From: a virus
Lineage: Duplodnaviria; Caudoviricetes
Virus record (IMG/VR): IMGVR_UViG_3300032227_001003
Coordinates: 1-34,514 of that record
Reading direction: 5' to 3' (one strand)
DNA length: 34,514 nt
Positions 11,956 through 31,684 of this stretch are shown here, in pieces (position 1 is the first letter of the stretch; the number at the start of each line of letters is the position of its first letter). Below the pieces are notes generated by a model. That model was not told the DNA's origin. It saw nothing but the letters and a program-made list of their open reading frames with translations, and did not search any database. The translations under genes and the position numbers were made by a program.

Positions 11956-12368
11956 TGCAACGCTTCTCAATCAAGGCTCTCTCCTCGATGTTTCGCACCA
12001 ATCGCGAGACGGTGGAAAAACGCGCCTCGCACCTGGGGCTGAAGTTTGAGGAAGGCGACAAGGGCGCAAAGCTCTACGACATCTTCGAGATCGCTCAGCT
12101 TCGCCCTCCACCAGCTCGCAGCGAAGGCGCAATGTCCTTGGAGGAGGCGAGGACGCGAGAGGCTACAGCGCGCGCTGAGGGGCTAGAAATGGACAATGCG
12201 CGGAAGCGCCGGGAGCTTGCAAACGTGGACGAGCTAATGGCCGCTCAGAACGTCCTCTTTGACGAGATCGCCGCGATGATCAAGAAATCGAAAATGACCG
12301 ACGCGGAAAAGGAGGATTGTCTGAGCGTGATTTCATCGGTTCCTCGGAAGTGCTGGGGCGAGCTTTAA
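11952..12368 (+). CDS. terS: Terminase small subunit (Nu1-like)
   Basis: N-terminal wHTH (SIKALSSMFRTNRETV...KLYDI), then LEEARTREATARAEGLEMDNARKRRELANVDEL coiled coil typical of Nu1/DUF1441. Confidence 0.8.
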   Translation: MMQRFSIKALSSMFRTNRETVEKRASHLGLKFEEGDKGAKLYDIFEIAQLRPPPARSEGAMSLEEARTREATARAEGLEMDNARKRRELANVDELMAAQNVLFDEIAAMIKKSKMTDAEKEDCLSVISSVPRKCWGEL

Positions 12369-13807: not shown

Positions 13808-14340
13808 TCAAATCTGGAATAAATGGTTCGACCGTTGGAAAGGCCAGCATCAGCGCGAGCCTTGGCAATTTCAGTGTCGAGATCGCGGCGGTATTTGGTC
13901 AAAAGCTCACGAGCGTCCATCAAGGAGATCTTAGTAATCGGCACGCCGCCGACCGTGTAAGTCTCAAGCCCTCGGCCTTCGTCGTCTGAGATTCGACCTT
14001 CAAGGTGTGCTTCCAAAGCCTTAACCATCTTCCGCGCATGACTCGGCAGCGGGGCGCGATCCGGCGGGGCTTGTAGCGTGATATTGCCAATGGACTCAAC
14101 CGACCGAATCCCGGCCACCTCAAGCGTCAAGGCAACAACATAAATTCCAGCTGGCAGGTTCGCGGTCTTTTCGGGTGGATAGGTAGCAGTTGCCGTCGTC
14201 CCTGAGACTGACAGCGGAACCGTGACAACGTCGCCCGTGTCAATGCTGCGAAAATGAGCGGATCCTGTAGCGCCTGACGTTACAGTTGCCGTAAATTCGA
14301 TGGATTCGCCGCAGAATGCACGGGAGGGTAAAGCTGCCAT
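13804..14340 (-). CDS. Head completion protein, gpW-like C-terminus with N-terminal Ig-like extension
   Basis: Between terL and portal; TYTVGGVPITKISLMDARELLTKYRRDL; start at ATG 14340. Confidence 0.7.
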   Translation of the reverse strand: MAALPSRAFCGESIEFTATVTSGATGSAHFRSIDTGDVVTVPLSVSGTTATATYPPEKTANLPAGIYVVALTLEVAGIRSVESIGNITLQAPPDRAPLPSHARKMVKALEAHLEGRISDDEGRGLETYTVGGVPITKISLMDARELLTKYRRDLDTEIAKARADAGLSNGRTIYSRFE

Positions 14341-14374
14341 GTCGATGACTCGACAAAACAAAGCCCGATTTCAA
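14341..14374 (-). promoter_or_regulatory. Late-promoter motif copy 2 (gpW-portal)
   Basis: Minus strand TTGAAATCGGGCTTTGTTTTGTCGAGTCATCGAC-ATG. Confidence 0.75.
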
Positions 14375-14385
14375 GGCGCTTTTGG

Positions 14386-16269
14386 TTAATCAGCTACGAA
14401 ATCGAGAGTATATTCGCGCTCTTTACCTCGATCTGGCAGGTTCTTGGCCGCATATTCAGCGTATTTTTTGGCAATCGTGGCAAAAGCAATGTCGAGCTTC
14501 TTGGCGGCGGCGATGTTGTAGACGCGAACGTCGAGCGGTTCGTTCCGGTCGCGCTTGTCCTTCTTGTCGAAAAACTCGTAGAAGCTCCCGTCTTGTCCTT
14601 TCTTCAGCGTCACCTTTTCGATCAGCAGGCGCTGGAAATATTCCGGGGTATAACCATGGCCGCTGGGGAAATGCATGTAATTATGCGGATAGATGGAAGA
14701 TTTGCGATCTTGCCGCAGCGCCGCGTTCTGGTAGATCATGCTCTTGCATTCGTGCGTGCCGATCTCAAAGAACGTTCCTCGCTTCTCCCTCTTAGGCTGC
14801 GAGACAATCGGCTTGCCCAAAACGGTCGAGCCGAAGATGGCAAAGACACCGCGAGCCTGTCGCACCTTGGTAAAGGCTAGCACCTGGGCCTGCCGAAATT
14901 TCGAGTCGATAAAAACTGAGGCGACTCGCAGCACTTTGCCGCAAGGGTGGAGGAACTCCGTCTGAAGCAGCGCATCGAGCTTTTGCCAAACCTCTGGCTC
15001 CATCGTCCCCCCGCTCAGAATGTGATACCCAAGCCCCCATGTCTGGCCGTTGACGCCGTGGCCGACAAACTCAAACTCCAAACGGTCGCCTTGAACGTCG
15101 CAACCTCCTGTGACAACCAGCACGCCAGCCGGGACTTTAAACTGGTTTTCAGTCACGCGCTCAAGGTAGTCGTAAGCCTCCTGAGCAAGGCCGACCGGAT
15201 CCGGCATTTCCTCCTCGGGCGCTTGGTAGGTTTCCGCGTCGAACGTGTTGATCAAGACGCGCTTGGCCTTCTCGCGATTGTCCGCCGCCTCGATTTTCAA
15301 CTCCTCGACCGCAGCCCAGTGCAGATGACTCGCGAATCCCTTTTGGGGAGGATGCGGCGACATCATGCGGGATCCGTGAAAGCCTGCGATTCCATTAAAC
15401 GGTCGCGTGGCCTGCCATCGGCCATTGCGAATCATCTCCATGCGCTCAGCATCGGAGATTCGGCACTCGCTCTCGGGGCATTTAATCCACGCATCCTCGG
15501 GCTTGTCGCGGTCATATTTGAGCTGGCGGCGATGCAGGACAAACTCCTTGGCGCAATGCGGACAGGGCGCAATCCAGACTCGCCAATCTGATTGGAGCAT
15601 CAGCGCCTCGATCTTGCTCTTGCCTTTGACGCTAGGATAGCTGGCCGCAATCTTGATCGTGTCAGCATATTCAGACCCTCGGACCCAGAAGATTTCGAGC
15701 GGGTCGCCTTCGTCGCTTTCGGTCGATTCAATGGCGTCGATCTCGTCCGCAAAGAGGAAGTTTCCCTTTGCTCTCCGCATCTCACCTGGAGCGTTTGACC
15801 CGAAGGCATTCACAAGACCACCAGGGAAAAGCTTGTGGAGGATTGTGTTCCCGCTTTTGCGCCGGCCAGAATCGTCGCCGATCAGCGAGGCAAGATCCGG
15901 CGTCGGATTGACCAGCTCTCCCATCAACGTCTCTTTGCTCCATTTCTCGGTCTGCGAGATCGTCGGATACATGACAAGGACGCGACGAGGGGCTTCGGCG
16001 ATGCTGTGGCCGATCTGGTTCATCACGACCTCGGTCTTGCCCATCCGGCTGGCGAGCATGTAAACTGTCATCTGCACGCGTGGATCGTATGGCGCTTCCA
16101 TCATTTCGCGTTGATACGGCGCAAAGTCGAACCGAAAGCGCCTTCCCCCCTCCATCCTTCGCACCTTTTCCGACCATTCCGGCGCGGTCATCGTGCGCTG
16201 GAATCGAAAGGCACGCTCTAAGTGCCTGAGAGTTCCCCGGTGATACCGATCAAGTGCCGCCTCATTCAT
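14386..16269 (-). CDS. terL: Terminase large subunit, lambda gpA family
   Basis: APYQREMM, Walker A ASRMGKT, Walker B LFADEID, CPHC...C Zn site, GCDVQGDRLE, FIDS, RNEPLD. Confidence 0.95.
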   Translation of the reverse strand: MNEAALDRYHRGTLRHLERAFRFQRTMTAPEWSEKVRRMEGGRRFRFDFAPYQREMMEAPYDPRVQMTVYMLASRMGKTEVVMNQIGHSIAEAPRRVLVMYPTISQTEKWSKETLMGELVNPTPDLASLIGDDSGRRKSGNTILHKLFPGGLVNAFGSNAPGEMRRAKGNFLFADEIDAIESTESDEGDPLEIFWVRGSEYADTIKIAASYPSVKGKSKIEALMLQSDWRVWIAPCPHCAKEFVLHRRQLKYDRDKPEDAWIKCPESECRISDAERMEMIRNGRWQATRPFNGIAGFHGSRMMSPHPPQKGFASHLHWAAVEELKIEAADNREKAKRVLINTFDAETYQAPEEEMPDPVGLAQEAYDYLERVTENQFKVPAGVLVVTGGCDVQGDRLEFEFVGHGVNGQTWGLGYHILSGGTMEPEVWQKLDALLQTEFLHPCGKVLRVASVFIDSKFRQAQVLAFTKVRQARGVFAIFGSTVLGKPIVSQPKREKRGTFFEIGTHECKSMIYQNAALRQDRKSSIYPHNYMHFPSGHGYTPEYFQRLLIEKVTLKKGQDGSFYEFFDKKDKRDRNEPLDVRVYNIAAAKKLDIAFATIAKKYAEYAAKNLPDRGKEREYTLDFVAD

Positions 16270-16280
16270 GTTTTAAGCCC

Positions 16281-17252
16281 TCAAACAGGCTGGCCGTGGC
16301 TCAACAATACCGGAGCCAGAGTCACCAGTTGCGAAAATTGCGTCTCCGTCCCGCGCGAAAAGGTCAGAAGCGCCGCAGTTGGCAGCGCCACGCTAGCCGC
16401 GTCGAGCAATCGCAGCACTTTGGAAGTGTCCAGCGTCATCGTCACGCCGATGGGGCCGATGAAGGTCTCGGAAACGGTGATCGCAGGATTTACTCCCACG
16501 GCAGTCCGCTTAATTTCAATCTTGATCGTCTCTCCGGTCGCATCTCTCGCTACCAAGAACTCTCCCGGTTCGATGTCCTCTAGTGCCGTCTCGATCTGAT
16601 ACGTTGAAACATCCGCCGAAAGCCACATCGTGCCGGTATCGGTTGCCGTCCTGATCTGGAACTTTCCGGCATCCGGCATCCTCGAGATGGTGATGCGGTC
16701 GTTTTGCGCAACGCTCACGCTACCGGTCGCCACGTTTGCAACCGTCACGGCAGCCTCGCTAATGTTGGCCGCGCTCGTCACCGCTACCAGTGTCTGGAGC
16801 GTTAGGTCAATCTCGACCGTCTCGACGTTGGAAGCGCCGCCAGCGATGAGCGTAAGCGCACGATTCGTCATCGTTCCGAAGGCGGAATGGGCAATGGTGA
16901 AATCGGCTCTTGCTCCGTTGCTGCGGAACGTGACGGTAAAAAGGCCATCTTTTCCCGTCACATCTACGCCACCTGCCGAAACAATGGCGGAAAGGCGATT
17001 AAGCGCAAGACCGAGCAAATGCGCGTCAATCCCGGCAGCGGGAAGCTCAATCGTGGAGGCCCCCCAGGTGATCGACCAATCGCCAGAGGCAATCAGCACG
17101 GGCTTTTCCAGCGCAAGGGAAAGGCTCAACGTGTCACTGCTCGTAATCTCCAAATGATCCGCGATTAGCTCGACGCTGAGACTGTCGCCGGGGCGAATCG
17201 CATCAGGCAATCCCCGCACCTGTCCCCTGTCATCGTATCGCAATCTGAGCAT
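16281..17252 (-). CDS. Virion structural protein (tail/baseplate-associated, repeated beta domains)
   Basis: Two related repeats (LALNRLSAIVSAGGVDVTG / IETALEDIEPGEFLVAR); start at ATG 17252 supported by the promoter motif. Confidence 0.6.
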   Translation of the reverse strand: MLRLRYDDRGQVRGLPDAIRPGDSLSVELIADHLEITSSDTLSLSLALEKPVLIASGDWSITWGASTIELPAAGIDAHLLGLALNRLSAIVSAGGVDVTGKDGLFTVTFRSNGARADFTIAHSAFGTMTNRALTLIAGGASNVETVEIDLTLQTLVAVTSAANISEAAVTVANVATGSVSVAQNDRITISRMPDAGKFQIRTATDTGTMWLSADVSTYQIETALEDIEPGEFLVARDATGETIKIEIKRTAVGVNPAITVSETFIGPIGVTMTLDTSKVLRLLDAASVALPTAALLTFSRGTETQFSQLVTLAPVLLSHGQPV

Positions 17253-17322
17253 GTCGGACGCCTCGACAAAACGCAGCGTAAAATCAAGTTGAAAATCCCG
17301 TTCGTTTTGTGCAGTCATCGGC
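17253..17322. promoter_or_regulatory. Back-to-back late-promoter motif copies 3 (minus) and 4 (plus)
   Basis: Minus: TTG 17287, GTTTTGT 17272, ATG 17252. Plus: TTG 17289, GTTTTGT 17304, ATG 17323. Centre TCAAGTTGA. Confidence 0.8.
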
Positions 17323-19479
17323 ATGCCTGACTCTACCGTCATCTCTGGCGTTGCCGACCTGCCTAAATTCTATTTCGCGGAGGGCGCACCGTTCCGATTG
17401 AGCCTTACTATCGGAGCGGAGTTTTCGATGACGGGCAAATTCGTGACGTTCGGAATGAGGGCGCGTTCCGGCACGGTCAGGCGCGTTTTCGGGACGGATT
17501 CCGGCGAGTCGAATCTGACCATTGCGGGGCAAGTCATCACATTGAACGTTGCGACAACCGACGCGACCGTTCCGGCCTTTGCATCTGGTTGGACCTTGGA
17601 AGATGTCCAAGCTAAGGGAGAGACCGAATACTGGGTGGATATTTCCGCGACCGAAGGCAGTGACGTTCTGTTGCGCCTTCAAGGCCAAGCCGATTGGGTG
17701 GCTCCTGGTTCCGACATCGCAGAATCTTCCGCCGTTGTTTCATCGCCAGCCATTGATGTGGATATAACGAGCGGAGCCGTCTCGGTATCGGTTGCAGTCC
17801 TCGGCGCTGCGGAACCGACGTTGACGACCAACACCGCAACCAGCGGGTTAACGGGCATTCTGAAAGCTGCAAGCAACACGCTCGACGTTGCCGTTGCAGG
17901 AACTGACTACGTCGCCACAAACGACTCCCGCTTGACCGACGCAAGGACGCCCACAAGCCACGTTCATGGGGGCATTTCCAACGCAGGCGCAATCGGCTCG
18001 ACCTCGGGCCTGCCGATCAAGACCGGAACCAGCGGAGTTCTTGAAGCTGGCGCATTCGGAACTTCAGCGGGTCAATTCGCACAAGGCAACGATGCGCGAT
18101 TCCATGATCGGTCGCATGCGGTGACCTCGACCAGCGATCACACTGCCGGGAACTGGAAGGTTTTCCACTCCAACGGCAGCGGTCAGCTTGTCGAGCTTGC
18201 CCTTGGAGCGGACGGAACCTTTCTAAAGAGCAATGGCGCGTCTCTTGCGCCTAGTTTCGCGACTCCTGCGGGAGGTGGTGGATCGTCCATCACCGGAACT
18301 GGCTTTGCTTATGTTCGATCAACAGGAAACAACTCTACCGCAGTAATCGGAAACCCAGCCTTGCCATACTTGACTGCGCAAGCGGCATGGAATGCTGGCG
18401 CGACTCGTTTTGACTTCGGCCCCGGCTCGTTTTCAATTGATGCGGCATTTGGCAGCGGCGGTGCGTCTAATGCGATTTATGTGCAGGGAGCTGGCGTTTC
18501 TGGATGCAGCCTTACCCTGACGTGGAGAGGAGAGGATGGAGTAGAGCAAAATGGTTTCACCGCGCCGGATTTAAACCTAAGCTCTGATAAAAGCGTTTAT
18601 TTAACAGTTACCATTGAAGGTGGAGATGGAACTTCTGCGGCATCGGATACTTACAACGGAGGGAATATCGCAAGTCACTACTTTTCAAACTGTTATATCG
18701 GAACCTTGACCTTAACGGCGGGAGCTGGATGCAACGGTGGAACTACAGGAGCCGACGCAACATCATCTGGCGCAGAGTTTACAACCATAGTGACGGGCGC
18801 GCTTCAAGGTTCGACCATTTATAAAAACGCAATCCTTGAGGCCGGGGTGTTTTCGCCAGATAAACTTTCCGATGGTAATAAAGGAGGCATCACCGTGGGC
18901 TCCAGCGGAACTAGCTGGAGCGTAAATGCAAACACGATACAATTTAGCAACCTTGTTACCGCCTCAGCAAAAGGGAAGATCATTGGAAGAAAAACCGCAG
19001 GGGCTGGCAATTTCGAGGAATGCGTGATCGGAGATTTTATCACGCCTGCCGCTGTTACGACCAGCAACATCACGGACACGACAGGAAATGTTGCCAACGT
19101 AACGGGCATGTCTTTTTCAATTGCCGCCAACGAAAAAGTCTCTGCTATATTTCGCGGCTTTTGGGCAACGAATACTTCTGGCTCTGGTTTCAAATATGCT
19201 TTTACTGGACCAGCCTCGCCTACCGACGTTCAGATCGGCGACTTCTCTTTTACTTCGGCCACCGCAGTCAGAACTGAATCGGGAATAACTGCATTCAGCA
19301 CAACCGCGACTCAAGGCGGCGGAACGCTGATAAATAGCGCGATGCCTATTATGATTCAGATTTACGTGTGCAACGGATCTACTCCAGGCACTGTTCAGCT
19401 TCAAGTCGGCGGAGAAGTAAACGGCTCAATTTTCACCCTTTATAAAGGCTTCACGATGCAGGTTCTCAGAATCCCATGA
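17323..19479 (+). CDS. Tail fibre / receptor-binding protein 1
   Basis: 718 aa Gly/Ser/Thr-rich; NDSRLTDARTPTSHVH fibre motif; GGGGS linker before an AT-richer distal module. Confidence 0.8.
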   Translation: MPDSTVISGVADLPKFYFAEGAPFRLSLTIGAEFSMTGKFVTFGMRARSGTVRRVFGTDSGESNLTIAGQVITLNVATTDATVPAFASGWTLEDVQAKGETEYWVDISATEGSDVLLRLQGQADWVAPGSDIAESSAVVSSPAIDVDITSGAVSVSVAVLGAAEPTLTTNTATSGLTGILKAASNTLDVAVAGTDYVATNDSRLTDARTPTSHVHGGISNAGAIGSTSGLPIKTGTSGVLEAGAFGTSAGQFAQGNDARFHDRSHAVTSTSDHTAGNWKVFHSNGSGQLVELALGADGTFLKSNGASLAPSFATPAGGGGSSITGTGFAYVRSTGNNSTAVIGNPALPYLTAQAAWNAGATRFDFGPGSFSIDAAFGSGGASNAIYVQGAGVSGCSLTLTWRGEDGVEQNGFTAPDLNLSSDKSVYLTVTIEGGDGTSAASDTYNGGNIASHYFSNCYIGTLTLTAGAGCNGGTTGADATSSGAEFTTIVTGALQGSTIYKNAILEAGVFSPDKLSDGNKGGITVGSSGTSWSVNANTIQFSNLVTASAKGKIIGRKTAGAGNFEECVIGDFITPAAVTTSNITDTTGNVANVTGMSFSIAANEKVSAIFRGFWATNTSGSGFKYAFTGPASPTDVQIGDFSFTSATAVRTESGITAFSTTATQGGGTLINSAMPIMIQIYVCNGSTPGTVQLQVGGEVNGSIFTLYKGFTMQVLRIP

Positions 19480-21414: not shown

Positions 21415-21669
21415 ATGACAACTCAAAAAGCCACCGCATTAACGAAGGAATACGGCGTTCAGATCTCCATCGGCCTTCTACTCGTTCTAGGGGCTGGCGT
21501 GTGGAACCTATCGCGAGCCGCGTTTAAGATTGAAGCTCGCCTTGAGGGCATCGAGCGCAATCAATGGTCAATCGAAATGGAGCGCGAGGTATGGCACAAT
21601 GTGAGCAAGTCGAATCCGATGATCCAAGCGCCGGATATAAACGCGATTATTTCGATCTTTCGGTATTAA
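21415..21669 (+). CDS. Small membrane protein with one TM helix and coiled coil
   Basis: ISIGLLLVLGAGVW followed by KIEARLEGIERN. Confidence 0.6.
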   Translation: MTTQKATALTKEYGVQISIGLLLVLGAGVWNLSRAAFKIEARLEGIERNQWSIEMEREVWHNVSKSNPMIQAPDINAIISIFRY

Positions 21670-22340
21670 GTCAGCCACGCCGATGGAGTAATTGAGCCTG
21701 AAATGCTTAAAATGTCGACTCCTTTTAAGGTCCATTCGTCACCGCAAACGGTTAACCCATTAAATTCTGGGCCTTCCACGCCTGAAGATGCCGCGCTCCC
21801 GCCTTCGCCCTCTCCGTTATCGTAACCGCAGTCAAAGACTGATCCAATCGTCCACTCATCGCGAAAAGGCACATAGATAATGAGTTCGGGGTTAAACCAA
21901 ATTCTGATTGAATTGTTTGGCCCATCTTCTTGCTCTTCGTTAAACTCCTCGTAACGGGTAAAGCTTGATTCAAATTCATATTCATTGTTGAACGGATTCA
22001 CAAAACGGCTAAACGCTTTTTTTAATGTTGTAATAGCAGTGCCCTCAACAGACCCGTCACTGTCGCGGAAGATTCCCCGGGTAAAATTTCCAGACCACGC
22101 AGCGGAACCTACCTCGGTGGAAAGCGACACATCAAAATGGTATTCAGACGCAAAAGCCAACGCAACTAGCGATTTCGGAGGTCTGCGAAGCTCTCCTGTT
22201 CCAGGAACCCAAAACCTGTAATCGTTTCGCACTTCAGTTGTTAGATCTAAATAAATTGGGTATGGATACGCAGCAATCTGTTGCCGCTCAAATTCCGCTG
22301 AGCCAACTGGATGGATGCCGGTCCTGTAATCGTAACTCAT
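21666..22340 (-). CDS. Putative tail tip protein
   Basis: Last gene of the tape-measure operon; acidic/aromatic. Confidence 0.55.
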   Translation of the reverse strand: MSYDYRTGIHPVGSAEFERQQIAAYPYPIYLDLTTEVRNDYRFWVPGTGELRRPPKSLVALAFASEYHFDVSLSTEVGSAAWSGNFTRGIFRDSDGSVEGTAITTLKKAFSRFVNPFNNEYEFESSFTRYEEFNEEQEDGPNNSIRIWFNPELIIYVPFRDEWTIGSVFDCGYDNGEGEGGSAASSGVEGPEFNGLTVCGDEWTLKGVDILSISGSITPSAWLT

Positions 22341-22975
22341 GCCGCTTTTTGTGCTATGACAAAGCCCGGAAGTTGGACAAACTCACCGTTTGGCGTCCTG
22401 TAAATCCCATATTGAATCGCGAGATGATTAAAACAAAGTTGCTCCGCGTAGATGCCCTCACTGATTAGAGTCGAGGAATCACTGGACTCAGAAACGAATT
22501 TCCAAAGCGGAAAATGCCTTTCGATAAATTCAAAGTCCTCTCCTTCAATTGTTCCGTTGTAAGTCACTTGATAGCCCAAATCCTCTGGCCATTGGGGCAA
22601 AAAGACAAGCTCACAAGCTGTTGGATCTTCTTCGTCGATTTTCAGCGCGATGTATCCGTCTGCTGCAACCGTAAAAATCTCATCAGGGTTGGAAATTGTG
22701 AGAGTAAGAGTGATCGAATCGGAGCTTTGTAGAACGGTCCCAACCTCGATACTGACTTCCGCAGCTTCGCGATCAACTACCGTTAATGGCCACGCTGGGA
22801 AAAACACTTGCTCTCCTCCTGCTCCAATTTTTGGCGGCAACCATCCTTGCGCCGTCTCGCTCCACCCCGGCCTCCCGCCGGGGTTGACGCTCGTTCGTTG
22901 CGCGTATTCGGCCACACGGTTGAGAGCTTCAACCATCCACTTGTTGCCCGATTTAAACTCTGGCCTCTTCATCAT
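22337..22975 (-). CDS. Putative tail tip/hub protein
   Basis: ATGA-coupled within the tape-measure operon. Confidence 0.55.
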   Translation of the reverse strand: MMKRPEFKSGNKWMVEALNRVAEYAQRTSVNPGGRPGWSETAQGWLPPKIGAGGEQVFFPAWPLTVVDREAAEVSIEVGTVLQSSDSITLTLTISNPDEIFTVAADGYIALKIDEEDPTACELVFLPQWPEDLGYQVTYNGTIEGEDFEFIERHFPLWKFVSESSDSSTLISEGIYAEQLCFNHLAIQYGIYRTPNGEFVQLPGFVIAQKAA

Positions 22976-23580
22976 GACGATACCGGTTCAATGAGGTTCT
23001 CCCACGACTCCACAACCGCCCAGACGCTGGGAGCCAATCGCGTCCTTGTGAATTGAGCGAGCCTTCCGACAGGCTTATACCTGCCCGAGATGCTGCCGGT
23101 GTATTTAGGAGGATCTGGCTGGAATAGAAGGTTTGTCGGAAGTGAGCTTGGAACAATGCCTGGAAACAACGGCCTTGTTGGAGAGTAAATTCCCCGGTAA
23201 ATCCATCGCACCGTGGTGGCTTGGGCGAAATATCGGAACGAGATGTTTTCATCGGCGTCTGTGTTGATCGTGACACTTTGCGAGGAAATGCTGTCCTCGA
23301 TGTCAACGATGCCGTTGTCGCTCGTTGCGTCGATGTATCCGATGAAGTTTAAGGTCAATTCAGCAACCGGGCCACGGTCGATGGAGTCCTTGGTTTCCAA
23401 ATACATGTTCGGATAGTTCGTGTGTCTCGTGCCTCGCTTCCATTTTGCTTTTTCTGCCGCTAGGCCCGAATTGATTCCGCGTAATACAACGGTTAAACCG
23501 TCGAGGCCGGATCGTGAAACCGTCTCTTGAACGGAGACTTCGCGGAATGTCGTTGTTCCTTTTCCTATTGGGGTGGGCAT
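22972..23580 (-). CDS. Putative distal tail protein
   Basis: Immediately downstream of the tape measure gene; beta-rich 202 aa. Confidence 0.55.
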   Translation of the reverse strand: MPTPIGKGTTTFREVSVQETVSRSGLDGLTVVLRGINSGLAAEKAKWKRGTRHTNYPNMYLETKDSIDRGPVAELTLNFIGYIDATSDNGIVDIEDSISSQSVTINTDADENISFRYFAQATTVRWIYRGIYSPTRPLFPGIVPSSLPTNLLFQPDPPKYTGSISGRYKPVGRLAQFTRTRLAPSVWAVVESWENLIEPVSS

Positions 23581-23581
23581 G

Positions 23582-25321
23582 TCAGTTCACGGTGAGGGCT
23601 TGGCCGATCTTGCTTTCGATGGATTCAAGGGAGGAGACTTGTTTCTCTTGGAGCGTGAGGTTCTTTTTGTCTCCCTTGTCATCGCCGCTTGTGCGCAGGC
23701 GACGCTTTTCGCCTAGGCCGGTAGTAAAACCAGGTCCGCCGACTCCTGCGATTCCAGCAAAACGTCCAGTTTTTGGCACGCCGTTTTCGTCCACTCCGTA
23801 GCGATTCGACATCGAAAACGCGTTTCCAGTTCCAATTGCAAGTCCAGCTGCGCGGTTTGATTGCATCTGCGCAAGTGCATTAAGTCCGCCAAACGTAGTT
23901 CCGCCAACTCCCGCGCCGTTATATTTATCAGCCTGCATTTGATACAACCCACCAAGCCCACCAAAACCTGCTTTTTTGTATTCTGCTGCTTTTGCCGCTA
24001 GATCCTCCCCGCCCGTAGTCGCTTCCGGTGATGTCGCCGCCGTTATGGCCCCCGAGTATTTTGCCATTACATCGCCTAAAGAATCCAGCGGACGGAAAGC
24101 ATCCGCGAGAACGTCAACAATCGGCTGGATTTTATCGGCTCCACGCGTTCCAAGGTCATCAAGCCATTTTGTAAGGGGGCTTTTCTCGCCCTTGCCAGAT
24201 AGCGCCTCCATGATGTCATTGCCACTAAAAACGGCTTTCAAAGCATCTTGAAATTGAGCCAAGGGTCTTAGCAGAGAGGCGGTCATGATGTTTGCAAGCC
24301 CACTCCAGTAATCGGGTGACGAGAGCGCGAGAAAGGTCGCCGAAATTACCTCTCCGATTCGCTGCCAGATTTGAAAAGCCTTATAAGCGCCGTCAACGAA
24401 TGACATAATTCCGGCAACCATTTCGGGAATCTTTGCGCCGAGGTCTTGTCCCATCTTTGCAAAATCAATTGTCCCAAGTTTTCCAATCAGGATGTTCATG
24501 CCAGGAATAAGCGCTTCCATGATCGGCTTTCCAATATCGGCAAGCCCCATGTTGATTGAATCTGTAAGCGTAGACCAAACCCCGTTGAAGGTTTTTGACT
24601 GCTTTTCCATCATTCCGAAAAACTGCCCGCCTTGCGAAGTCAGTGAAACGAAAGCGGTCTCAAGCATTGGAAACGTAATCTTACCTTCCGAAGCTAACTT
24701 TTTGACTTCACCTTGAGAAACTCCGAGCTGTTTCGCGAACTCTTGAATAATTGGAATCCCGCGCCCGGTTAGCTGATTGATGTCTTCGGAGAAAAGAGTC
24801 CCTTGGACTCTGGCTTTGCCATAAAGCTCAGCAATCTCGCCGATTGGAGCCATGACTCCGCTTGAAACATCCCCGACTCTGCGGAGCGTTTCAGCAACGG
24901 TATCGGCAGACTCGCCAAAGGCGAGCAACATCCGACCTGCTCCGGCAAGCTCTGGGAACTCAAAAGGAGTTTCCGCCCCTAGTTTTTGAAGTTCGCCAAG
25001 AACCTTTTGAGCAGATTCAGCACTTCCAAGCATCGTCTCAAATGCAACGGATGTTGATTGCATGTCTGCCGCTAATTTAACGCCCTTAAACAAAGCTGCC
25101 GCAGAGGCGGCGGCGGCAGTTGCGACTCCAAGTGCCGCAAATTTGACCGTTGCAGCGCCTGCGCTCTTAACAAGGCCGCCGATTGCACCGCTTGCGCTGC
25201 CCAACGATTGGCCAATCTTAGTGCCGGTAGTTGCGGCCAGCCCTCCAGCTCGTCGCATCGTCGCAGCGAATCCCGTCATGTCTGCCGAGATCGTCGTCTT
25301 TAGGTCTGCTTTTGCGGCCAT
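23582..25321 (-). CDS. Tail tape measure protein
   Basis: AFETMLGS...ETPFEF...LRRVGDV...YGKARVQG...DINQLTGRGIPI...QSKTFNGVWSTLTD tape-measure domain. Confidence 0.93.
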   Translation of the reverse strand: MAAKADLKTTISADMTGFAATMRRAGGLAATTGTKIGQSLGSASGAIGGLVKSAGAATVKFAALGVATAAAASAAALFKGVKLAADMQSTSVAFETMLGSAESAQKVLGELQKLGAETPFEFPELAGAGRMLLAFGESADTVAETLRRVGDVSSGVMAPIGEIAELYGKARVQGTLFSEDINQLTGRGIPIIQEFAKQLGVSQGEVKKLASEGKITFPMLETAFVSLTSQGGQFFGMMEKQSKTFNGVWSTLTDSINMGLADIGKPIMEALIPGMNILIGKLGTIDFAKMGQDLGAKIPEMVAGIMSFVDGAYKAFQIWQRIGEVISATFLALSSPDYWSGLANIMTASLLRPLAQFQDALKAVFSGNDIMEALSGKGEKSPLTKWLDDLGTRGADKIQPIVDVLADAFRPLDSLGDVMAKYSGAITAATSPEATTGGEDLAAKAAEYKKAGFGGLGGLYQMQADKYNGAGVGGTTFGGLNALAQMQSNRAAGLAIGTGNAFSMSNRYGVDENGVPKTGRFAGIAGVGGPGFTTGLGEKRRLRTSGDDKGDKKNLTLQEKQVSSLESIESKIGQALTVN

Positions 25322-26806: not shown

Positions 26807-27802
26807 ATGAGCGACGAAATCAATCTTTCCGACCGCCTCGTTTCTGATTCCGACGCAATGAACCGCGTCGTTAAGGCGCAGGCCGAACTTGCCAAAGCCC
26901 GAGCTGAGGCTTCCGCATTGCGAAAGGATCGAGACGATGCGCTGGACGAATACAATGCGCTCCGAGCGGCGAAATTCCCGATCAAGAGCGAATACAAACC
27001 GAGGCCGAGGGTCAAGACTGAAACCGTTCGACTCATCGCCAACGATGTCCACGGATCCATGATGGACCGCCCTGCCGTCGAGGCGTTCTTGGGCGATGTG
27101 CGCCGACTCTCGCCGGATGAGATCATCTTGAACGGCGACATCGTGGAATGTGGCGGCTTCCTTGCCAAGCACCACGCGGCCAACTACATCGCCCAGACGA
27201 CCTACAGCTATCAAGACGACATCGCCCATGGCAACTGGTTCTTGGACCAGCTCCAAGAGGCCGCGCCCTCTGCGCAAATCCACTACATTGAAGGCAACCA
27301 TGAGGACCGAGTCGAGCGGTGGGTGATTGACGAGACGATGTCGAACTCGCGAGATGCCGAATTCCTGCGGCGGCTCAACGCCCCTGAGTTTCTGCTCAAG
27401 CTCAAGGAAAGGGGCATCGTCTACTACAGGCGCTCCGAGACGCACGTCCCCGGCCTGCCCCCTGGCTGGATCAAGATGGGGAAAATCTTTTTCGTGCATG
27501 AATTGAGCGGATCCAAGAACGCCGCGAGCGATTCCGTCTCCAGGACTGCGGGAAATGTGGTCTTCGCCCATACCCACCGAGAAGATTCGGCCACGCGAGT
27601 CCTTCCCGGCGTCGGCCTTGTCAAAGCTTGGAATCCCGGCTGCCTTTGCCAACGTCAACCGCTATGGCGGCACTCTGATCCCACGGGCTGGTCGCATGGA
27701 TACGGCTACCAAGTCATAGCGAAATCAGGCGAGTTCATCCACGTGAACGTCCCGATCTGGGAGGGTAGATCCCTCCTCGGCAACATGCTGGAAGGCCGAT
27801 GA
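26807..27802 (+). CDS. Calcineurin-like metallophosphoesterase with N-terminal coiled coil
   Basis: NDVHG, LNGDIVE, EGNHE, VHE, AHTHR, NPGCLC motifs. Confidence 0.85.
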   Translation: MSDEINLSDRLVSDSDAMNRVVKAQAELAKARAEASALRKDRDDALDEYNALRAAKFPIKSEYKPRPRVKTETVRLIANDVHGSMMDRPAVEAFLGDVRRLSPDEIILNGDIVECGGFLAKHHAANYIAQTTYSYQDDIAHGNWFLDQLQEAAPSAQIHYIEGNHEDRVERWVIDETMSNSRDAEFLRRLNAPEFLLKLKERGIVYYRRSETHVPGLPPGWIKMGKIFFVHELSGSKNAASDSVSRTAGNVVFAHTHREDSATRVLPGVGLVKAWNPGCLCQRQPLWRHSDPTGWSHGYGYQVIAKSGEFIHVNVPIWEGRSLLGNMLEGR

Positions 27803-28122
27803 GCGCGTTTGAGGGACATTTCCGCAGAGCGCAGGATGCCCTTGGACTCGCTCATTATGACGTTCGCTTTTCGGTTGAGCCTGGTGCGGGAAACTACGCA
27901 AGCATTGAACCAGATCCCGCATCCTGCACTGCGACCTGTCGAGTCGATCTGGAGTTGTGCGAGCGAGAAGAGCAAACGGCGCAGGTAGCAGTCCATGAAG
28001 TTCTGCACCTTTTGCTAGCGGAGCTGCGTCACGCTGCGTCCATGTCAGACGAGGCTGCTGATTGGGTGGAAGAGCAGATCGTCAGGAAAATCGAAGCCGT
28101 GGTTTTTCGAGGGCTGGCATGA
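27799..28122 (+). CDS. Small zincin-like (HEXXH) protein
   Basis: VHEVLHLLL followed by EEQIV. Confidence 0.65.
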   Translation: MSAFEGHFRRAQDALGLAHYDVRFSVEPGAGNYASIEPDPASCTATCRVDLELCEREEQTAQVAVHEVLHLLLAELRHAASMSDEAADWVEEQIVRKIEAVVFRGLA

Positions 28123-28388
28123 TCTGCCTTTGTTGCCCTCCCATCAATTTCGTCTGCGAGCTGCACCGCTCAGGCAAATCGCCTAATTCGGTCGCGATTG
28201 GCAGCAGATTAGGCGTTGATTGCCCGTGGGATCCCGACGACCTGCCGGATCGTCTACGCGGATTCGGTCACCGGATGGCCGATCAAGACGGCGGAAGCGG
28301 AGAAGAGTGGATCTGGCCGCAGGAGGATCTCGAGGCGCAAATGATCGAGGCCGTTAAGGTCATCTTTGAAGCGGCAGAATTGCCGTGA
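28119..28388 (+). CDS. Hypothetical protein, Cys-rich N-terminus
   Basis: ATGA-coupled; MICLCCPPINFVCELH. Confidence 0.5.
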   Translation: MICLCCPPINFVCELHRSGKSPNSVAIGSRLGVDCPWDPDDLPDRLRGFGHRMADQDGGSGEEWIWPQEDLEAQMIEAVKVIFEAAELP

Positions 28389-29523
28389 ACCGCTTCGCCT
28401 CGTCGCGGCTGACCAACTTGGCCACATAGGACCGATAGAGCTGGCTGGCATTGGCGTGGCGCGACCACGTTGCCACCTTTGCCGCATCACCGTAAAGGCT
28501 CATCATCGCCGTGCAAAACGTGTGTCGCATGGCATTCTTGGGCCATTCTGGGATTCCGATCTTTGGAAACTCCTCGCCTCGCCAATTCTCGACCGTATCG
28601 TTTCCAGGCACCGAGATCTTGCCATCGCCCTGATACTTTGTAAGCCACGCCCAAAGGTTCTCAGGCAGGTCATGCAGCGCCCAATCGTCTCCGGTCTTGA
28701 CGACTCGCTCACCGCCCTCTGTCCAACCAGGTAGCGTGATGACTCGCGCATCCAGGTCGATCCATCCCCACTGCATCCGACCGACTTCAGCCCTTCTGAT
28801 TCCCGCGAATAACTGGAGCGCGTGCCATGGAGCGTATTTCGGAGCGTTGCAATCGATCCATGCCATCATCGCCGCGCATTGATCGACGGACAGGACGCCC
28901 TTGGGCTTCGGCTTGAGGCGCGGAAGATCGCCTTCGTGGATGGACAGGGTTGGCGCTTTTGCCACCAGCCCTCGACGCTCGCACCAGTTAAAGAAGTTGC
29001 AGAGGCTGCCGTGATAGTTGGCGACCGTTCTCGCATCGAGCGGCAGGCTAGCCAGCCAATCGAGGACGGCGTTGCCCGTAATGCTCCTAATCTGGCGCTC
29101 ACGTGCCGACTCAGCGAAAAGCCCGACATGGTGACGCAGACCGGACAAGTGCCGCTTTGACAGACCTCTAACCTCTTGGGCCGCTATGAACTCATCGAAG
29201 GCCTCTTCCACCGTAACGGCAGCGGATCCGAGCGGATGGTGCTCAAGGTAGAATCGGGCGGCATCTCTAAGGTCCACCCCGGGAATGATGCGTCGGGCCT
29301 CCGCAAGCTCACGCGAATCTTCAGGGCGAAGAGGGGCCGAGTCAGTCCCGTGGCGCTTGACTTGGCGCACATGTTCCGCCCATGCTTTTTCCGCTTGGGC
29401 TTGGGTCTGGTGGAGGGACCGAAGCCGCTTTCCCTGCGAGTGAATGGTAAGCTCCCATTTCTCCCGATCACTCCTGTAATTGATGGGAATAGTCCCGCTT
29501 CGGGTCGTTGGTATTTTGCCCAT
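28360..29523 (-). CDS. int: Tyrosine integrase
   Basis: FAGIRRAEV (R), VVKTG (K), NAMRHTF, SRHAN, YRSY; core-binding domain ARTVANYHGSLCNFFNW. Confidence 0.93.
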   Translation of the reverse strand: MGKIPTTRSGTIPINYRSDREKWELTIHSQGKRLRSLHQTQAQAEKAWAEHVRQVKRHGTDSAPLRPEDSRELAEARRIIPGVDLRDAARFYLEHHPLGSAAVTVEEAFDEFIAAQEVRGLSKRHLSGLRHHVGLFAESARERQIRSITGNAVLDWLASLPLDARTVANYHGSLCNFFNWCERRGLVAKAPTLSIHEGDLPRLKPKPKGVLSVDQCAAMMAWIDCNAPKYAPWHALQLFAGIRRAEVGRMQWGWIDLDARVITLPGWTEGGERVVKTGDDWALHDLPENLWAWLTKYQGDGKISVPGNDTVENWRGEEFPKIGIPEWPKNAMRHTFCTAMMSLYGDAAKVATWSRHANASQLYRSYVAKLVSRDEAKRFTAILPLQR

Positions 29524-29527
29524 TTTT

Positions 29528-29709
29528 GGTGGCAGTTGGTGGTGGTTTACGTCTCAAAAGGCATTATTTTGCCATATTTTGATAACTCTGTAAACCCTGC
29601 AACCCTTATAGAATAAGGGATTGTTAAATGGAGGTGAGGGGAGTTGAACCTTCAACCACCCTTATATAATGGGCCTTGCAGGGGGGGCGGTGGCGGTTCG
29701 GTGGCGGGT
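29528..29709. mobile_element. attP region with paired arm-type sites and symmetric accessory sites
   Basis: GGTGGYRGKT at 29528, 29538, 29689 and 29700; CCCTGCAA (29595) / TTGCAGGG (29676) and CCCTTATA on both sides of the core. Confidence 0.7.
29629..29650 (-). other. attP core: 3' fragment of tmRNA (ssrA) or tRNA-Ala
   Basis: Minus strand GGTTCAACTCCCCTCACCTCCA = T-loop, 3' T-stem and acceptor strand with U70 and discriminator A73. Confidence 0.8.
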
Positions 29710-29735
29710 GGACGCAGGAGAGGGGCGTATTTCGC

Positions 29736-29749
29736 TGTTCCTTTGATCA
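29736..29749. promoter_or_regulatory. Second LexA-like box (one mismatch)
   Basis: TGTTC-CTTT-GATCA. Confidence 0.45.
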
Positions 29750-29841
29750 CTTTTTAAGGTTTCGAGATTATCGCCAAGGAAGCCCCGAACTGGGTGGGAC
29801 AAAAGCGGGGTGACGGGGCGTTTTTCGCTCATCAAAATTTT

Positions 29842-29869
29842 TTGACACTGTTCGCGGGAACAGTAAAAT
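29842..29869 (+). promoter_or_regulatory. Sigma70-type promoter with a perfect LexA (SOS) box in its spacer, antisense to the repressor
   Basis: TTGACA-N16-TAAAAT; TGTTC-GCGG-GAACA at 29849-29862 within the palindrome ACTGTTC...GAACAGT. Confidence 0.8.
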
Positions 29870-29877
29870 GCGGCCTT

Positions 29878-29946
29878 ATGAACGCACTCAACCCGCTCAG
29901 GTTTCACTGTTCGTTGACTTGGACCGTTGGACATCTTTTCGGATGA
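29878..29946 (+). CDS. Possible leaderless 22-aa peptide downstream of the LexA-boxed promoter
   Basis: ATG 8 nt after the -10; MNALNPLRFHCSLTWTVGHLFG; overlaps the repressor 3' end antisense. Confidence 0.3.
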   Translation: MNALNPLRFHCSLTWTVGHLFG

Positions 29947-30211
29947 GATCGGCAAGCCACTGGTCAAGGGACACGCCCAATGACTTTGCTTTCTGTTGAG
30001 CCGCCAAAAGCTCAGAAACGGAAAGCCTCGGGTTTAGCTCTGGCGGCCCAGTTCGCAGTCTTTCAATGAGGCGCAGCGCAGGCCCTGGTATCGGGCGATT
30101 TGCGGAAAGCCATCCGTTGACGGTCGAGAGCGAAACGCCGCACTGGTGGGCGAGCCACTCCCGCGTCTCACCCGTGCCTAAAAGCCATTCTTTAACCTCT
30201 TCGTTTTCCAT
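29897..30211 (-). CDS. Immunity repressor: XRE-type HTH plus C-terminal ribbon-helix-helix-like domain, no S24 peptidase
   Basis: REWLAHQCGVSLSTVNGWLS HTH; LNPRLSVSELLAAQQKAKSLGVSLDQWLADLI; between attP and the divergent early operon. Confidence 0.75.
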   Translation of the reverse strand: MENEEVKEWLLGTGETREWLAHQCGVSLSTVNGWLSANRPIPGPALRLIERLRTGPPELNPRLSVSELLAAQQKAKSLGVSLDQWLADLIRKDVQRSKSTNSET

Positions 30212-30304
30212 GATGGCAGAATCATAAATCTTTTTTACCAAATTGCAAACTTTCCTCTTGATTTCGGATTACCAGTTTGCATATTTTACCTTAGCAGTTA
30301 GCAC
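30212..30304. promoter_or_regulatory. Divergent lysis/lysogeny switch with operator-like direct repeats
   Basis: TTACCAAATTGCAAA (30235) and TTACCAGTTTGCATA (30269); minus TTGCAA-N16-TATGAT; plus TTGATT...CATATT. Confidence 0.6.
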
Positions 30305-30478
30305 ATGATTACAACAATAACCTTTGAAATCGTTCCAGACGCCTCACTCACACAGGGCATTCTGGAGGCCTTCGCCAAGAAAGCGGCGGATCACGGACAA
30401 ACCCCGGAAGGACGTCTCCAAGACCTCATTCGGCAGGATCTGGGGACAGACGGAAGCGCGGAGGAGGGGGCAGCATGA
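30305..30478 (+). CDS. Small ribbon-helix-helix-like regulator in the cro position (57 aa, absent from the ORF track)
   Basis: MITTITFEIVPDASLTQGILEAFAKKAADHGQTPEGRLQDLIRQDL...; ATGA-coupled to the antirepressor. Confidence 0.65.
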   Translation: MITTITFEIVPDASLTQGILEAFAKKAADHGQTPEGRLQDLIRQDLGTDGSAEEGAA

Positions 30479-31191
30479 GTCTTTCCCTTGCCATTAAAGA
30501 CGGACCGCGAGGCGTTGACCTTCGCGAGCTTCACGCAGAGCTTGACTCTGGACGGGATTTCTCGACATGGGCGCGGGCAAATCTGGCCGAATTCATCGAG
30601 GGGCACGATTTCGAGGTTTCCCCCACAGTGGGGGAAAACCCTGCCGGGGGTCGCCCTCGCATTGACTACGCCGTTTCCATCGAGTGCGCCAAGCACATCG
30701 CGATGATGGAGCGGACCGAGAAGGGGCGGCAGGTCCGTCAATACTTCATCGAGATTGAGAAGACGGCGCAACTCCCGGCCATCCCGACTCACTCCGAAGC
30801 CCTGCGCCTCGCCGCCGACGCAATCGACAAGGCCAATGCACTTGCCCTTGAAATCGCGGATCTGAAGCCGAAGGCCGAGTTTTACGACGCTGTCACCGCC
30901 TCCGACGAAGTCATCCAGCTCGCGGTCGCATGCCAGGTGCTGGAAATGCCCTTCGGTCGCAATACGCTCTTTCAGCGCCTCCGCAATCGAGGAGTCTTGA
31001 TTACCGCCGGTGGCCGACACAATCTCCCAAAGCAGCGTTTCATCGAGCAGGGGCTTTTTACGGTCAAGCAGTCTCACTACGTGGACTCTGACAAGCAGGT
31101 CCAGCCCTGCTACACGCCCTACGTCACGCAGAAGGGGCTTGATTGGCTTCGCAAGGAGTTTGCGCCTCAAGCGAAAGGAGTCACGGCATGA
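30475..31191 (+). CDS. ant: Phage antirepressor (AntA/AntB N-terminal + KilAC C-terminal)
   Basis: VDLRELHAEL...DFSTW...AKHIAMMERTEKGRQVRQYFI; KPKAEFYD...GRNTLFQRLR...PKQRFIEQGLF...VTQKGLDWL. Confidence 0.9.
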   Translation: MSLSLAIKDGPRGVDLRELHAELDSGRDFSTWARANLAEFIEGHDFEVSPTVGENPAGGRPRIDYAVSIECAKHIAMMERTEKGRQVRQYFIEIEKTAQLPAIPTHSEALRLAADAIDKANALALEIADLKPKAEFYDAVTASDEVIQLAVACQVLEMPFGRNTLFQRLRNRGVLITAGGRHNLPKQRFIEQGLFTVKQSHYVDSDKQVQPCYTPYVTQKGLDWLRKEFAPQAKGVTA

Positions 31192-31418
31192 AAGACCTTT
31201 CCGCGCAACTCGACCGCATCGAGGCCGCGCTTGCCTCACTTGGCGGCATCCAATCGCCATGGCTCAGAGGCGACAAGGCCGGGGCCGAATACGCAGGATT
31301 TAAGTCACCGCGCGGATTTCTCCGCTGGGCCTCACTGAAAGGCATTCGTCCTGACAAGAGCGACGGCATCAACTTTTGGAGCAGAAGAGACATAGATAAA
31401 GCAAGAGAGAAACGATGA
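31188..31418 (+). CDS. Excisionase-like HTH DNA-binding protein
   Basis: SPWL...GAEYAGFKSPRGFLRW...FWSRRDID. Confidence 0.6.
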   Translation: MKDLSAQLDRIEAALASLGGIQSPWLRGDKAGAEYAGFKSPRGFLRWASLKGIRPDKSDGINFWSRRDIDKAREKR

Positions 31419-31684
31419 ACATATTGAACAACAGAAAAGCGGACAACCTCCGCGCACGCATGGCGGAGTTTTTTGACTTCACCAGCGGCGATAGTGTCCA
31501 AGACATTATAAACAGGGCTTTCGAGGCTGGCGTTGCAGCCAAAAGCGATGCCGATTTTTTCGCTATGCAGGACGCCTTCGACCGCGCTCGCGCTCGCTAC
31601 GAGGCCCAGCGCCGCACTCAACCCGTGGCGTTCCTCGACCTTCAGCCTGGAACTCTTATCAGAATTGCCGCGAATGAACTTTGA
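31415..31684 (+). CDS. Hypothetical protein
   Basis: ATGA-coupled early gene. Confidence 0.6.
   Translation: MNILNNRKADNLRARMAEFFDFTSGDSVQDIINRAFEAGVAAKSDADFFAMQDAFDRARARYEAQRRTQPVAFLDLQPGTLIRIAANEL

What the first reader, a model, noticed from the sequence alone, without database searches (positions are those of the whole stretch)
29842..30211. LexA-boxed promoter firing antisense into a non-cleavable repressor: candidate new SOS-induction switch
Seen: TTGACA-N16-TAAAAT on the plus strand, with a perfect palindrome ACTGTTC-GCGG-GAACAGT filling the spacer. The predicted start lies about 20 nt from the stop codon of the minus-strand repressor and points into it. The 104-aa repressor has no S24 autopeptidase domain. 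The only ORF at the predicted +1 is 22 codons (29878-29946). Known: TGTTC-N4-GAACA is the reported Verrucomicrobia LexA motif, and phages with non-cleavable repressors (coliphage 186 tum, N15 antC, Gifsy) use LexA-controlled antirepressor proteins. Inference: DNA damage here would release an antisense transcript, convergent transcription or a micro-peptide that silences the repressor. Read-through would also reach the cro-position gene, ant and the xis-like gene, which lie on the same strand.
Basis: partly seen in the sequence, partly recalled or inferred. Interest (0 to 1): 0.85.

Follow-up and report, generated by a model that had tools for sequence, protein, structure and literature searches.

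The report
Hidden SOS micro-antirepressor in Verrucomicrobiota phages
This temperate phage has a predicted promoter, likely switched on by DNA damage through host LexA, in front of a conserved 22-codon reading frame that runs backwards over the end of its repressor gene; the peptide likely disables the repressor and wakes the phage, and the same peptide core recurs beside three different repressor families.

Summary
An 11/12 sigma-70 promoter (29842-29869) holds the window's only exact TGTTC-N4-GAACA palindrome and points into the 3' end of a 104-aa repressor that has no S24 domain.

The new result is that the 22-codon ORF (29878-29946) looks like a real gene. Two distant phages with different RHH repressors carry the same cassette: promoter, box in the spacer, a start codon 5-8 nt after the -10, and the core [HR]-C-S-L-T-W-x-[LV]-G. 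Between those two, 13 codons show 6 synonymous and 0 non-synonymous changes in the peptide frame, against 0 and 7 in the repressor frame.

Best reading (0.55): a LexA-controlled 15-23-residue antirepressor that breaks the RHH dimer. LexA binding, host identity, translation and the peptide's target were not tested.

The layout is not new. Bacillus phi106 AimX-AimC (bioRxiv 2025) has a LexA site, then a 29-aa antirepressor overlapping the end of a non-cleavable repressor. This system differs: no arbitrium genes, RHH repressors, a shorter peptide, and a near-invariant core across dissimilar repressors. That invariance suggests either a broad-range antirepressor or a host target. Verdict: new variant of a known kind.

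The parts
29842..29869 (+). Predicted sigma-70 promoter (TTGACA-16-TAAAAT), convergent with the repressor gene
   Evidence: Same position with a 16-nt spacer in L097 (TTTACG/TATTCT, 8/12) and L131 (TTGACG/TATTTT, 9/12)
29847..29864 (.). Palindromic operator filling the spacer (TGTTC-N4-GAACA, also CTGT-N8-ACAG); likely a host LexA box
   Evidence: Identical 16-nt spacer in L097; 2 mismatches in L131; no listed difference in the X3 contig. The LexA assignment is a recalled motif, untested
29878..29946 (+). 22-aa micro-ORF MNALNPLRFHCSLTWTVGHLFG. ATG 8 nt after the -10, no room for a Shine-Dalgarno site (predicted leaderless). Proposed antirepressor peptide
   Evidence: Synonymous-biased divergence; core conserved in L097, L131, L010 and in the loose ends of X3 and X5 (read by hand)
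29897..30211 (-). 104-aa repressor: Cro/C1-type HTH (about 1-56) plus RHH-like domain (about 55-97), no S24. Its polar tail appears to be a by-product of the overlapping micro-ORF
30212..30304 (.). Divergent control region with TTTGCA-type repeats (candidate operators)
   Evidence: D1. Similar repeats upstream of repressor homologues in L010, L012 and L013
30305..30478 (+). 57-aa cro-position gene, first gene of the early operon
   Evidence: No Pfam hit here; the genes at this position in L097, L131 and L025 hit RHH-type families
30475..31191 (+). AntA/AntB-KilAC 'antirepressor' gene of the early operon; not part of the conserved cassette
   Evidence: No tblastn hit in G002 or G008
29629..29650 (-). 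attP core matching a tmRNA 3' end
   Evidence: In at least 23 of 40 viral loci with this 22-mer ARAGORN calls a tmRNA there; shared with L025
28360..29523 (-). Tyrosine integrase

Best explanation
[quoted passage not shown] Shown: promoter, palindrome, ORF, absence of S24, conservation of the cassette beside three repressor families, and coding-type divergence of the ORF. Inferred: LexA as the binder, SOS induction, translation, and the repressor as target. The proposed mode is that the alternating core (F/L-x-C-x-L-x-W-x-V/L) forms one beta-strand that pairs with, or replaces, the ribbon strand of the RHH dimerisation domain. That domain is the one element the three repressor types appear to share. 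Breaking the dimer would free the early promoter and start the lytic cascade (cro-position gene, ant, xis-like gene, exonuclease). Antisense overlap may add a minor effect.
For: (1) A box-only scan gave 59 loci, 1 related to this phage (L097; integrase 23% identical). It has the identical spacer, a GTG 6 nt after the -10 and a 23-aa ORF with LRCSLTW, Cys at position 11 as here, over the end of a 65-aa RHH repressor. (2) A peptide-only scan gave 22 loci, 4 related: L097's own contig and three copies of one locus (L131, L139, L142). The latter has a 9/12 promoter with a 2-mismatch box in the spacer and a 15-aa ORF over a third repressor; the 18 unrelated loci had best boxes of 3 or more mismatches. 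(3) L097 vs L131, 13 codons: 6 synonymous / 0 non-synonymous in the peptide frame, 0 / 7 in the repressor frame; 3 of the 6 lie outside the search pattern and include a TCC/AGT serine switch. Window vs L097, 8 codons, neither found by peptide pattern: 4/3 against 0/5. Window vs L010: 4/2 against 1/5. (4) Repressor tails that can encode [HR]CS[LF]TW antisense in the same register: 17 of 24 close HTH-RHH homologues (two are this protein; 8 of 13 distinct tails), 3 of 9 and 9 of 17 in the two RHH families, 19 distinct heptamers, shuffle rate 0.7% or less. (5) A 35.9-kb relative keeps promoter and box and continues the peptide frame (L-L-R-L-R-C-S-L-T, read by hand) into an L131-family repressor. 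So the box does not travel with the repressor's DNA-binding domain, which argues for a host binder. (6) The C-terminal domain aligns with the RHH structures TacA1 (Z 7.0, rmsd 1.9, 50 aligned) and PutA (Z 6.7, rmsd 1.5, 44 aligned). (7) Precedent: phi106 AimX.
Against: The peptide core is almost invariant while the repressors are dissimilar (HHalign A3 vs A5 and A6: probability about 1%; A5 vs A6: 92%). Known antirepressors are mostly cognate-specific or co-evolve with their repressor, which fits a host target at least as well. The LexA motif could not be checked against any host SOS gene. L025, a very close relative (integrase 93%), has a 3-mismatch box, no recognisable promoter and a core changed to H-W-S-F-T-S. 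In X4 and X7 the same repressor sits behind a replaced upstream stretch of unknown sequence. None of 11 distant repressor-homologue loci has the cassette at the repressor's 3' end, including several short ones without S24, and only 3 of 150 distant homologues have a compatible stretch. The tail-compatibility counts are not independent (shared descent) and show only that the peptide can be encoded. RHH Z-scores are middling.
Confidence: 0.55

Rival explanations
1. The peptide is real and damage-induced but acts on a conserved host factor (RecA or LexA, a protease or adaptor, RNA polymerase, or the ribosome exit tunnel as an arrest peptide that lets the transcript read on), not on the repressor.
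For: Invariant core across three dissimilar repressor families; invariant Trp and Gly near a variable stop. Bacillus phage GIL01 gp7 binding LexA is a precedent (search listing only).
Against: In every DNA locus seen, the ORF lies over the repressor's 3' end, as for AimX. All the repressors carry a predicted RHH domain. Peptide length on both sides of the core varies (15-23 aa), and the stop is 3-8 codons after the Trp.
Confidence: 0.22
2. The effector is the transcript: antisense pairing or polymerase collision silences the repressor gene, or read-through reaches the early operon; the ORF only stabilises the RNA.
For: Convergent geometry with a 41-56 nt overlap in all three DNA loci. No + strand intrinsic terminator between the promoter and the early operon. 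Lambda oop RNA is an antisense RNA with a LexA site in its promoter region (PMC5869508 passage).
Against: Amino-acid-level conservation with nucleotide divergence is not expected of a purely RNA function. [quoted passage not shown]
Confidence: 0.1
3. The peptide is an antirepressor, but the palindrome binds a host regulator other than LexA, so the inducing signal is not DNA damage.
For: The motif assignment is recalled only; the paper is not held. The L131 box has 2 mismatches and reads as a GTTC direct repeat. The host is inferred from repressor neighbours only.
Against: Exact fit to two recalled LexA consensus forms. A non-cleavable repressor needs another link to damage sensing, and LexA-controlled antirepressors are the usual one.
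Confidence: 0.1
4. Chance: the palindrome is a hairpin in the repressor's 3' UTR and the ORF is incidental.
For: The box would fold as a hairpin in the - strand transcript.
Against: No U-tract follows it on either strand in the window; 0 of 60 resamples give the architecture; independent recovery in L097 and L131 with fixed promoter spacing and a coding signal.
Confidence: 0.03

Closest known systems
Bacillus phi106/phiW23 AimX-AimC, extended arbitrium systems (bioRxiv 10.1101/2025.11.23.689978; read: two of three Results parts, the AimX-AimC binding section and the Discussion; figures and supplements not seen)
   Same: LexA site, then a tiny ORF (29 aa) with a 30-bp antisense overlap on the end of a short repressor lacking an autocleavage domain, next to a divergent cro-like gene. 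First thought to be an antisense RNA, then shown to be a protein antirepressor that forms a heterodimer and blocks repressor oligomerisation.
   Different: Here there is no aimR-aimP upstream (attP and integrase lie there). The repressors are HTH-RHH or RHH-only; the fold match to AimC covers only the HTH (9iaq, residues 1-58) and no AimC sequence match appeared. The peptide is 15-23 aa with a predicted leaderless start, and its core is constant across repressor families, whereas AimX is divergent and tracks AimC.
Salmonella Gifsy GftA/GfoA (PMC3121763; passages and one section read), SPbeta-family Sar (bioRxiv 10.1101/2025.11.27.690993; passages), coliphage 186 Tum and N15 AntC (recalled)
   Same: Non-cleavable repressor inactivated by a small LexA-controlled antirepressor; Gifsy antirepressors can act on non-cognate repressors.
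   Different: Gifsy antirepressor genes lie far from the immunity region; Sar is about 100 aa and phage-specific. The passages read describe no overlap with the repressor gene and no RHH repressor.
Lambda oop RNA (PMC5869508, PMC2327240; passages)
   Same: Antisense transcript with a LexA site in its promoter region, directed at a lysogeny regulator.
   Different: oop is described as an antisense RNA against cII; this transcript carries a conserved reading frame and faces the repressor.
P22 immI mnt-arc-ant (recalled, not tested)
   Same: Divergent pair of RHH regulators followed by ant, as in L025 and in outline here.
   Different: Secondary immunity region in P22, with no SOS-boxed micro-ORF recalled; here the RHH gene sits at the main repressor position.
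Vibrio TF-smORF modules (PMC10432266; passages)
   Same: Very small antirepressors, non-proteolytic inactivation.
   Different: SOS-independent, about 60 codons for smORF63, cognate-specific.

Membership tests
LexA-controlled antirepressor / non-cleavable repressor switch | Repressor lacks the S24 autopeptidase | tested here: met
   longer family members do carry S24
LexA-controlled antirepressor / non-cleavable repressor switch | SOS-box-like operator overlapping the promoter of a small ORF | tested here: met
   sequence level only; motif recalled
LexA-controlled antirepressor / non-cleavable repressor switch | The small ORF encodes a protein | tested here: met
   by codon-level divergence; translation itself not observed
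LexA-controlled antirepressor / non-cleavable repressor switch | LexA binds the box and damage induces the ORF | not testable with these tools
   needs EMSA and expression data
LexA-controlled antirepressor / non-cleavable repressor switch | The product binds and inactivates the repressor | not testable with these tools
   needs reporter or binding assay
Extended arbitrium AimX-AimC | aimR-aimP upstream of aimX | tested here: not met
   attP and integrase lie upstream; none of the 47 ORFs scanned hit a receptor or TPR family
Extended arbitrium AimX-AimC | Short ORF overlapping the repressor's 3' end in antisense | tested here: met
   50, 56 and 41 nt overlap in window, L097 and L131
Extended arbitrium AimX-AimC | Repressor homologous to AimC beyond the HTH | tested here: inconclusive
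   9iaq aligns over residues 1-58 only; the C-domain aligns with RHH proteins
Extended arbitrium AimX-AimC | Antirepressor sequence diverges with its cognate repressor | tested here: not met
   core constant across three repressor families
Verrucomicrobia LexA regulon | TGTTC-N4-GAACA motif (recalled; source paper not held) | tested here: met
   exact in window and L097, 2 mismatches in L131, 3 in L025
Verrucomicrobia LexA regulon | Host is a member of Verrucomicrobiota | tested here: inconclusive
   ESM neighbours commonest Verrucomicrobiota; the only 3 phage-collection hits are Akkermansia phages; no host genome found
Verrucomicrobia LexA regulon | Same motif upstream of host lexA and recA | not testable with these tools
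oop-like LexA-controlled antisense sRNA | Non-coding, short terminated RNA | tested here: not met
   coding signal; no + strand terminator-like site in 29870-30305; the one Rfam match near the region was below threshold
Ribbon-helix-helix proteins | Strand-helix-helix C-terminal domain in the window's repressor | tested here: inconclusive
   Z 6.7-7.0 to TacA1, TacA2 and PutA; weak profile hits; NikA-like hits in 2 of 92 homologues; RHH_1 above cut-off for the L097 repressor, weak for L131

The most novel reading that the evidence does not exclude
A 15-residue, leaderless, SOS-induced peptide is a broad-range ribbon-helix-helix breaker: one near-invariant beta-strand that inactivates dissimilar RHH repressors by taking the place of the partner ribbon. 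It would be shorter than the smallest phage antirepressor in the papers read here (29 aa). It would let phages swap immunity repressors without re-evolving their induction trigger, and would let co-resident prophages induce one another.
Probability: 0.3. Interest if true: 0.85.

Novelty: new variant of a known kind. Interest (0 to 1): 0.66.

Why it matters
It gives a concrete, testable account of how phages with tiny RHH or HTH-RHH repressors, which have no RecA-cleavable domain, could be induced in a phylum whose phage regulation is barely described. It exposes a gene that standard gene calling misses (its exact product is not in the 15-billion-protein collection). It shows a way to detect such genes from the odd, low-complexity tails they force on the overlapping repressor. 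If the peptide inactivates several unrelated RHH repressors, it is a minimal general RHH inhibitor and a convergent counterpart to AimX. If it does not, it points to an unknown host target for a 15-residue SOS peptide.

Tried and rejected
Complex prediction of repressor residues 50-104 (two copies) with the peptide frame (two copies): no verdict, score 0.02 against a mark of 0.32, controls not folded. This is not evidence either way.

Sequencing runs: no RNA holder listed. This says nothing about expression.

Exact promoter-plus-box pattern in viral contigs: 0. A looser version in GTDB genomes: 3 hits (two Chloroflexota, one Christensenellaceae), none in front of an evident SOS gene. Repressor family in GTDB genomes: none confirmed.

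First peptide pattern: 2 loci, both unrelated chance hits. The deep repressor alignment was too variable for a locus scan. Peptide tblastn in 50,697 phage records: no match. Integrase in plasmids: none. ESM Atlas on the C-domain: no usable hit. Foldseek PDB: nothing at E<=0.001.

Second 1-mismatch box at 29736-29749: conserved in L025 but inside the attP-side block and not in a promoter-like site; not pursued. Box as the repressor's own operator: rejected, because the same box occurs with HTH-RHH and RHH-only repressors. Peptide core as a second LexA half-site (9-nt repeat D19): rejected, because relatives change it synonymously.

Literature: the Verrucomicrobia LexA paper is not held, and searches for the motif gave nothing usable. 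Searches for this cassette or an RHH/LexA antirepressor gave 1, 0 and 0 papers; the one listed is a toxin-antitoxin survey, not read. Earlier scan findings: none in 4 look-ups.

Full report
Setting. The window is a whole phage record of 34,514 bases with a 123-nt terminal repeat. It encodes terminase, portal, capsid-protease, tape measure, primase-helicase and integrase. The integrase (28360-29523, -) is followed by an attP core matching a tmRNA 3' end (29629-29650; at least 23 of 40 loci with this 22-mer are called tmRNA). Then come the promoter in question, the repressor (29897-30211, -), and a divergent early operon (57-aa gene, AntA-KilAC gene, xis-like gene, exonuclease). The host is probably Verrucomicrobiota: the repressor's language-model neighbours are commonest in that phylum, and its only 3 hits among 50,697 phage records are Akkermansia phages. 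This is an inference; no host genome was reached.

Observation. TTGACA-16-TAAAAT at 29842-29869 scores 11 of 12, the best of 5 sites in the last 7.5 kb. Its spacer is the window's only exact TGTTC-N4-GAACA and only CTGT-N8-ACAG. Both motifs are recalled as LexA boxes (Verrucomicrobia and E. coli type). The Verrucomicrobia paper was seen only as a citation and could not be read. An exact box inside a promoter of 9/12 or better arose in 0 of 60 resampled windows. The repressor has no S24 domain, and the record has none. Its family has 604 representatives at E<=0.001. Of 92 of the 150 listed that I scanned, 14 long members carry S24, as do 3 of 7 locus homologues tested, including two Akkermansia phage repressors. 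The model shows an HTH followed by an extended segment and two helices. That second part aligns with RHH proteins at Z 6.7-7.0, which is suggestive, not conclusive.

The micro-ORF behaves like a gene. A box-only scan of viral contigs returned 59 loci; one (L097) had homology to this phage. It has a different integrase (23% identical) and a 65-aa RHH-only repressor. It also has the identical 16-nt spacer, a GTG 6 nt after the -10, and a 23-codon ORF with the core LRCSLTW over the repressor's end. A peptide-only scan returned 22 loci, of which 4 were related: L097's contig and three copies of one locus (L131, L139, L142). There a 9/12 promoter with a 2-mismatch box in its spacer precedes the 15-codon ORF MAITSLRCSLTWSLG over a third, 63-aa repressor. 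The 18 unrelated loci had no box better than 3 mismatches. L097 and L131 differ at 6 of 13 codons, all synonymous in the peptide frame, while all 7 changed repressor codons are non-synonymous. Three of the six lie outside the search pattern, one being a TCC/AGT serine switch. Pairs found without the peptide pattern show the same bias: window-L097 4/3 against 0/5, and window-L010 4/2 against 1/5.

Further relatives agree. Loose ends of related contigs, read by hand, continue the frame as L-L-R-L-R-C-S-L-T (X3) and V-F-N-P-P-R-L-R-C-S (X5), with most third positions changed. X3 has no listed difference from 29840 to 29891; 4 of its 21 differences are not placed and may lie near the ends of the match. 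Its tail matches P0194, an L131-family repressor on a contig of the same length. So this window's promoter also serves a different repressor. Among stored proteins, tails able to encode [HR]CS[LF]TW antisense in register number 17 of 24 close homologues (two are this protein; 8 of 13 distinct tails), 3 of 9 in the L097 family and 9 of 17 in the L131 family. They give 19 different heptamers, against 0.7% or less in shuffles. These counts share ancestry and show compatibility, not DNA.

Limits and contrary results. The cassette is confined to this phage group: 0 of 11 distant repressor loci have it at the repressor's end, and only 3 of 150 distant homologues have a compatible stretch. L025, close over integrase, terminase and portal (93-99%) but with a swapped RHH pair, has a 3-mismatch box, no promoter match and an altered core; it looks decayed or rewired. 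X4 and X7 keep the repressor but replace the upstream stretch with unknown sequence. The three repressor families are dissimilar while the peptide core is constant. That is unlike the cognate-specific antirepressors in the papers read.

Mechanism. Shown: architecture, conservation, coding signal, lack of S24. Inferred: (i) the box binds a host protein, because it persists across HTH-RHH and RHH-only repressors, and LexA is the best candidate by motif and precedent; (ii) the message is leaderless, as the start codon lies 5-8 nt after the -10 in all three DNA loci; (iii) the peptide is the effector; (iv) its alternating hydrophobic core is a beta-strand that disrupts the RHH dimer. I put the whole chain at 0.55, a host target for the peptide at 0.22, RNA-level action at 0.10, a non-LexA regulator at 0.10 and chance at 0.03.

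Comparison with what is known. Bacillus phi106 has a LexA site, then a 29-aa ORF with a 30-bp antisense overlap on the end of the short, non-cleavable repressor aimC. Recoding and start-codon mutants showed that the protein, not the RNA, acts, by forming a heterodimer that blocks oligomerisation (bioRxiv 10.1101/2025.11.23.689978; text sections read, figures and supplements not seen, and they may bear on any AimX homology). The present system works like it but is not a member: no aimR-aimP, RHH repressors, a shorter peptide, and no co-divergence with the repressor. Gifsy (PMC3121763) and Sar give the wider class, and lambda oop the RNA analogue. Three searches found no description of this cassette; most subscription journals are not searched.

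Verdict. A real feature and a new variant of the LexA-controlled small-antirepressor switch; interest 0.66. The boldest reading not excluded, a 15-residue broad-range RHH inhibitor, has probability about 0.3.

Noticed in passing
window 29754-30475 vs L025 and runs X2, X3, X4, X7: The immunity region is a swappable cassette between attP and ant: HTH-RHH, two or more RHH-only types, and an 892-nt unknown module. Several switch points fall inside the micro-ORF (29891, 29914), so it may be a recombination point.
   Followed up: partly
window 29846-29854 and 29905-29913; L131 2458-2465 and 2507-2514: The left half of the box is repeated exactly in the peptide core (9 nt here, about 8 nt in L131), so the core may have arisen by duplication of the operator half-site.
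   Followed up: partly
window 29736-29749: Second, 1-mismatch TGTTC-N4-GAACA-like site, conserved in L025, near attP; could be a weak LexA site or an integrase/xis arm site.
   Followed up: no
window 30305-30478; L010 497-736; L013 about 1042-1225; L002 3685-3951: Cro-position genes next to this repressor family look RHH-like rather than HTH and could pair with the repressor's RHH domain.
   Followed up: partly
L025 4591-4680 (-): Apparently decayed cassette: degenerate box, an ATG at the homologous position opening an 8-codon ORF coupled to a 21-codon ORF with an altered core.
   Followed up: partly
window 29595-29683: 25-nt imperfect inverted repeat flanking the tmRNA-like core, plus GGTGGCGGTT-type direct repeats on both arms: candidate integrase binding sites.
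   Followed up: no
window 12365-16269, 16281-17342, 21666-25321: Terminase large subunit, portal and tail genes lie on the - strand in blocks interleaved with + strand head and tail genes, an unusually rearranged morphogenesis region; the contig is one piece in its probable source run only for 28000-31600 as tested.
   Followed up: no
window 26807-27802: Metallophosphoesterase gene beside the lysis genes, 98% identical in L025.
   Followed up: no
L069 868-889 and L098 1501-1522: Two proviruses carry the same CTGTTCATCCGAACAG palindrome, one after an SRAP-like gene, so this box form is not specific to Verrucomicrobiota.
   Followed up: no
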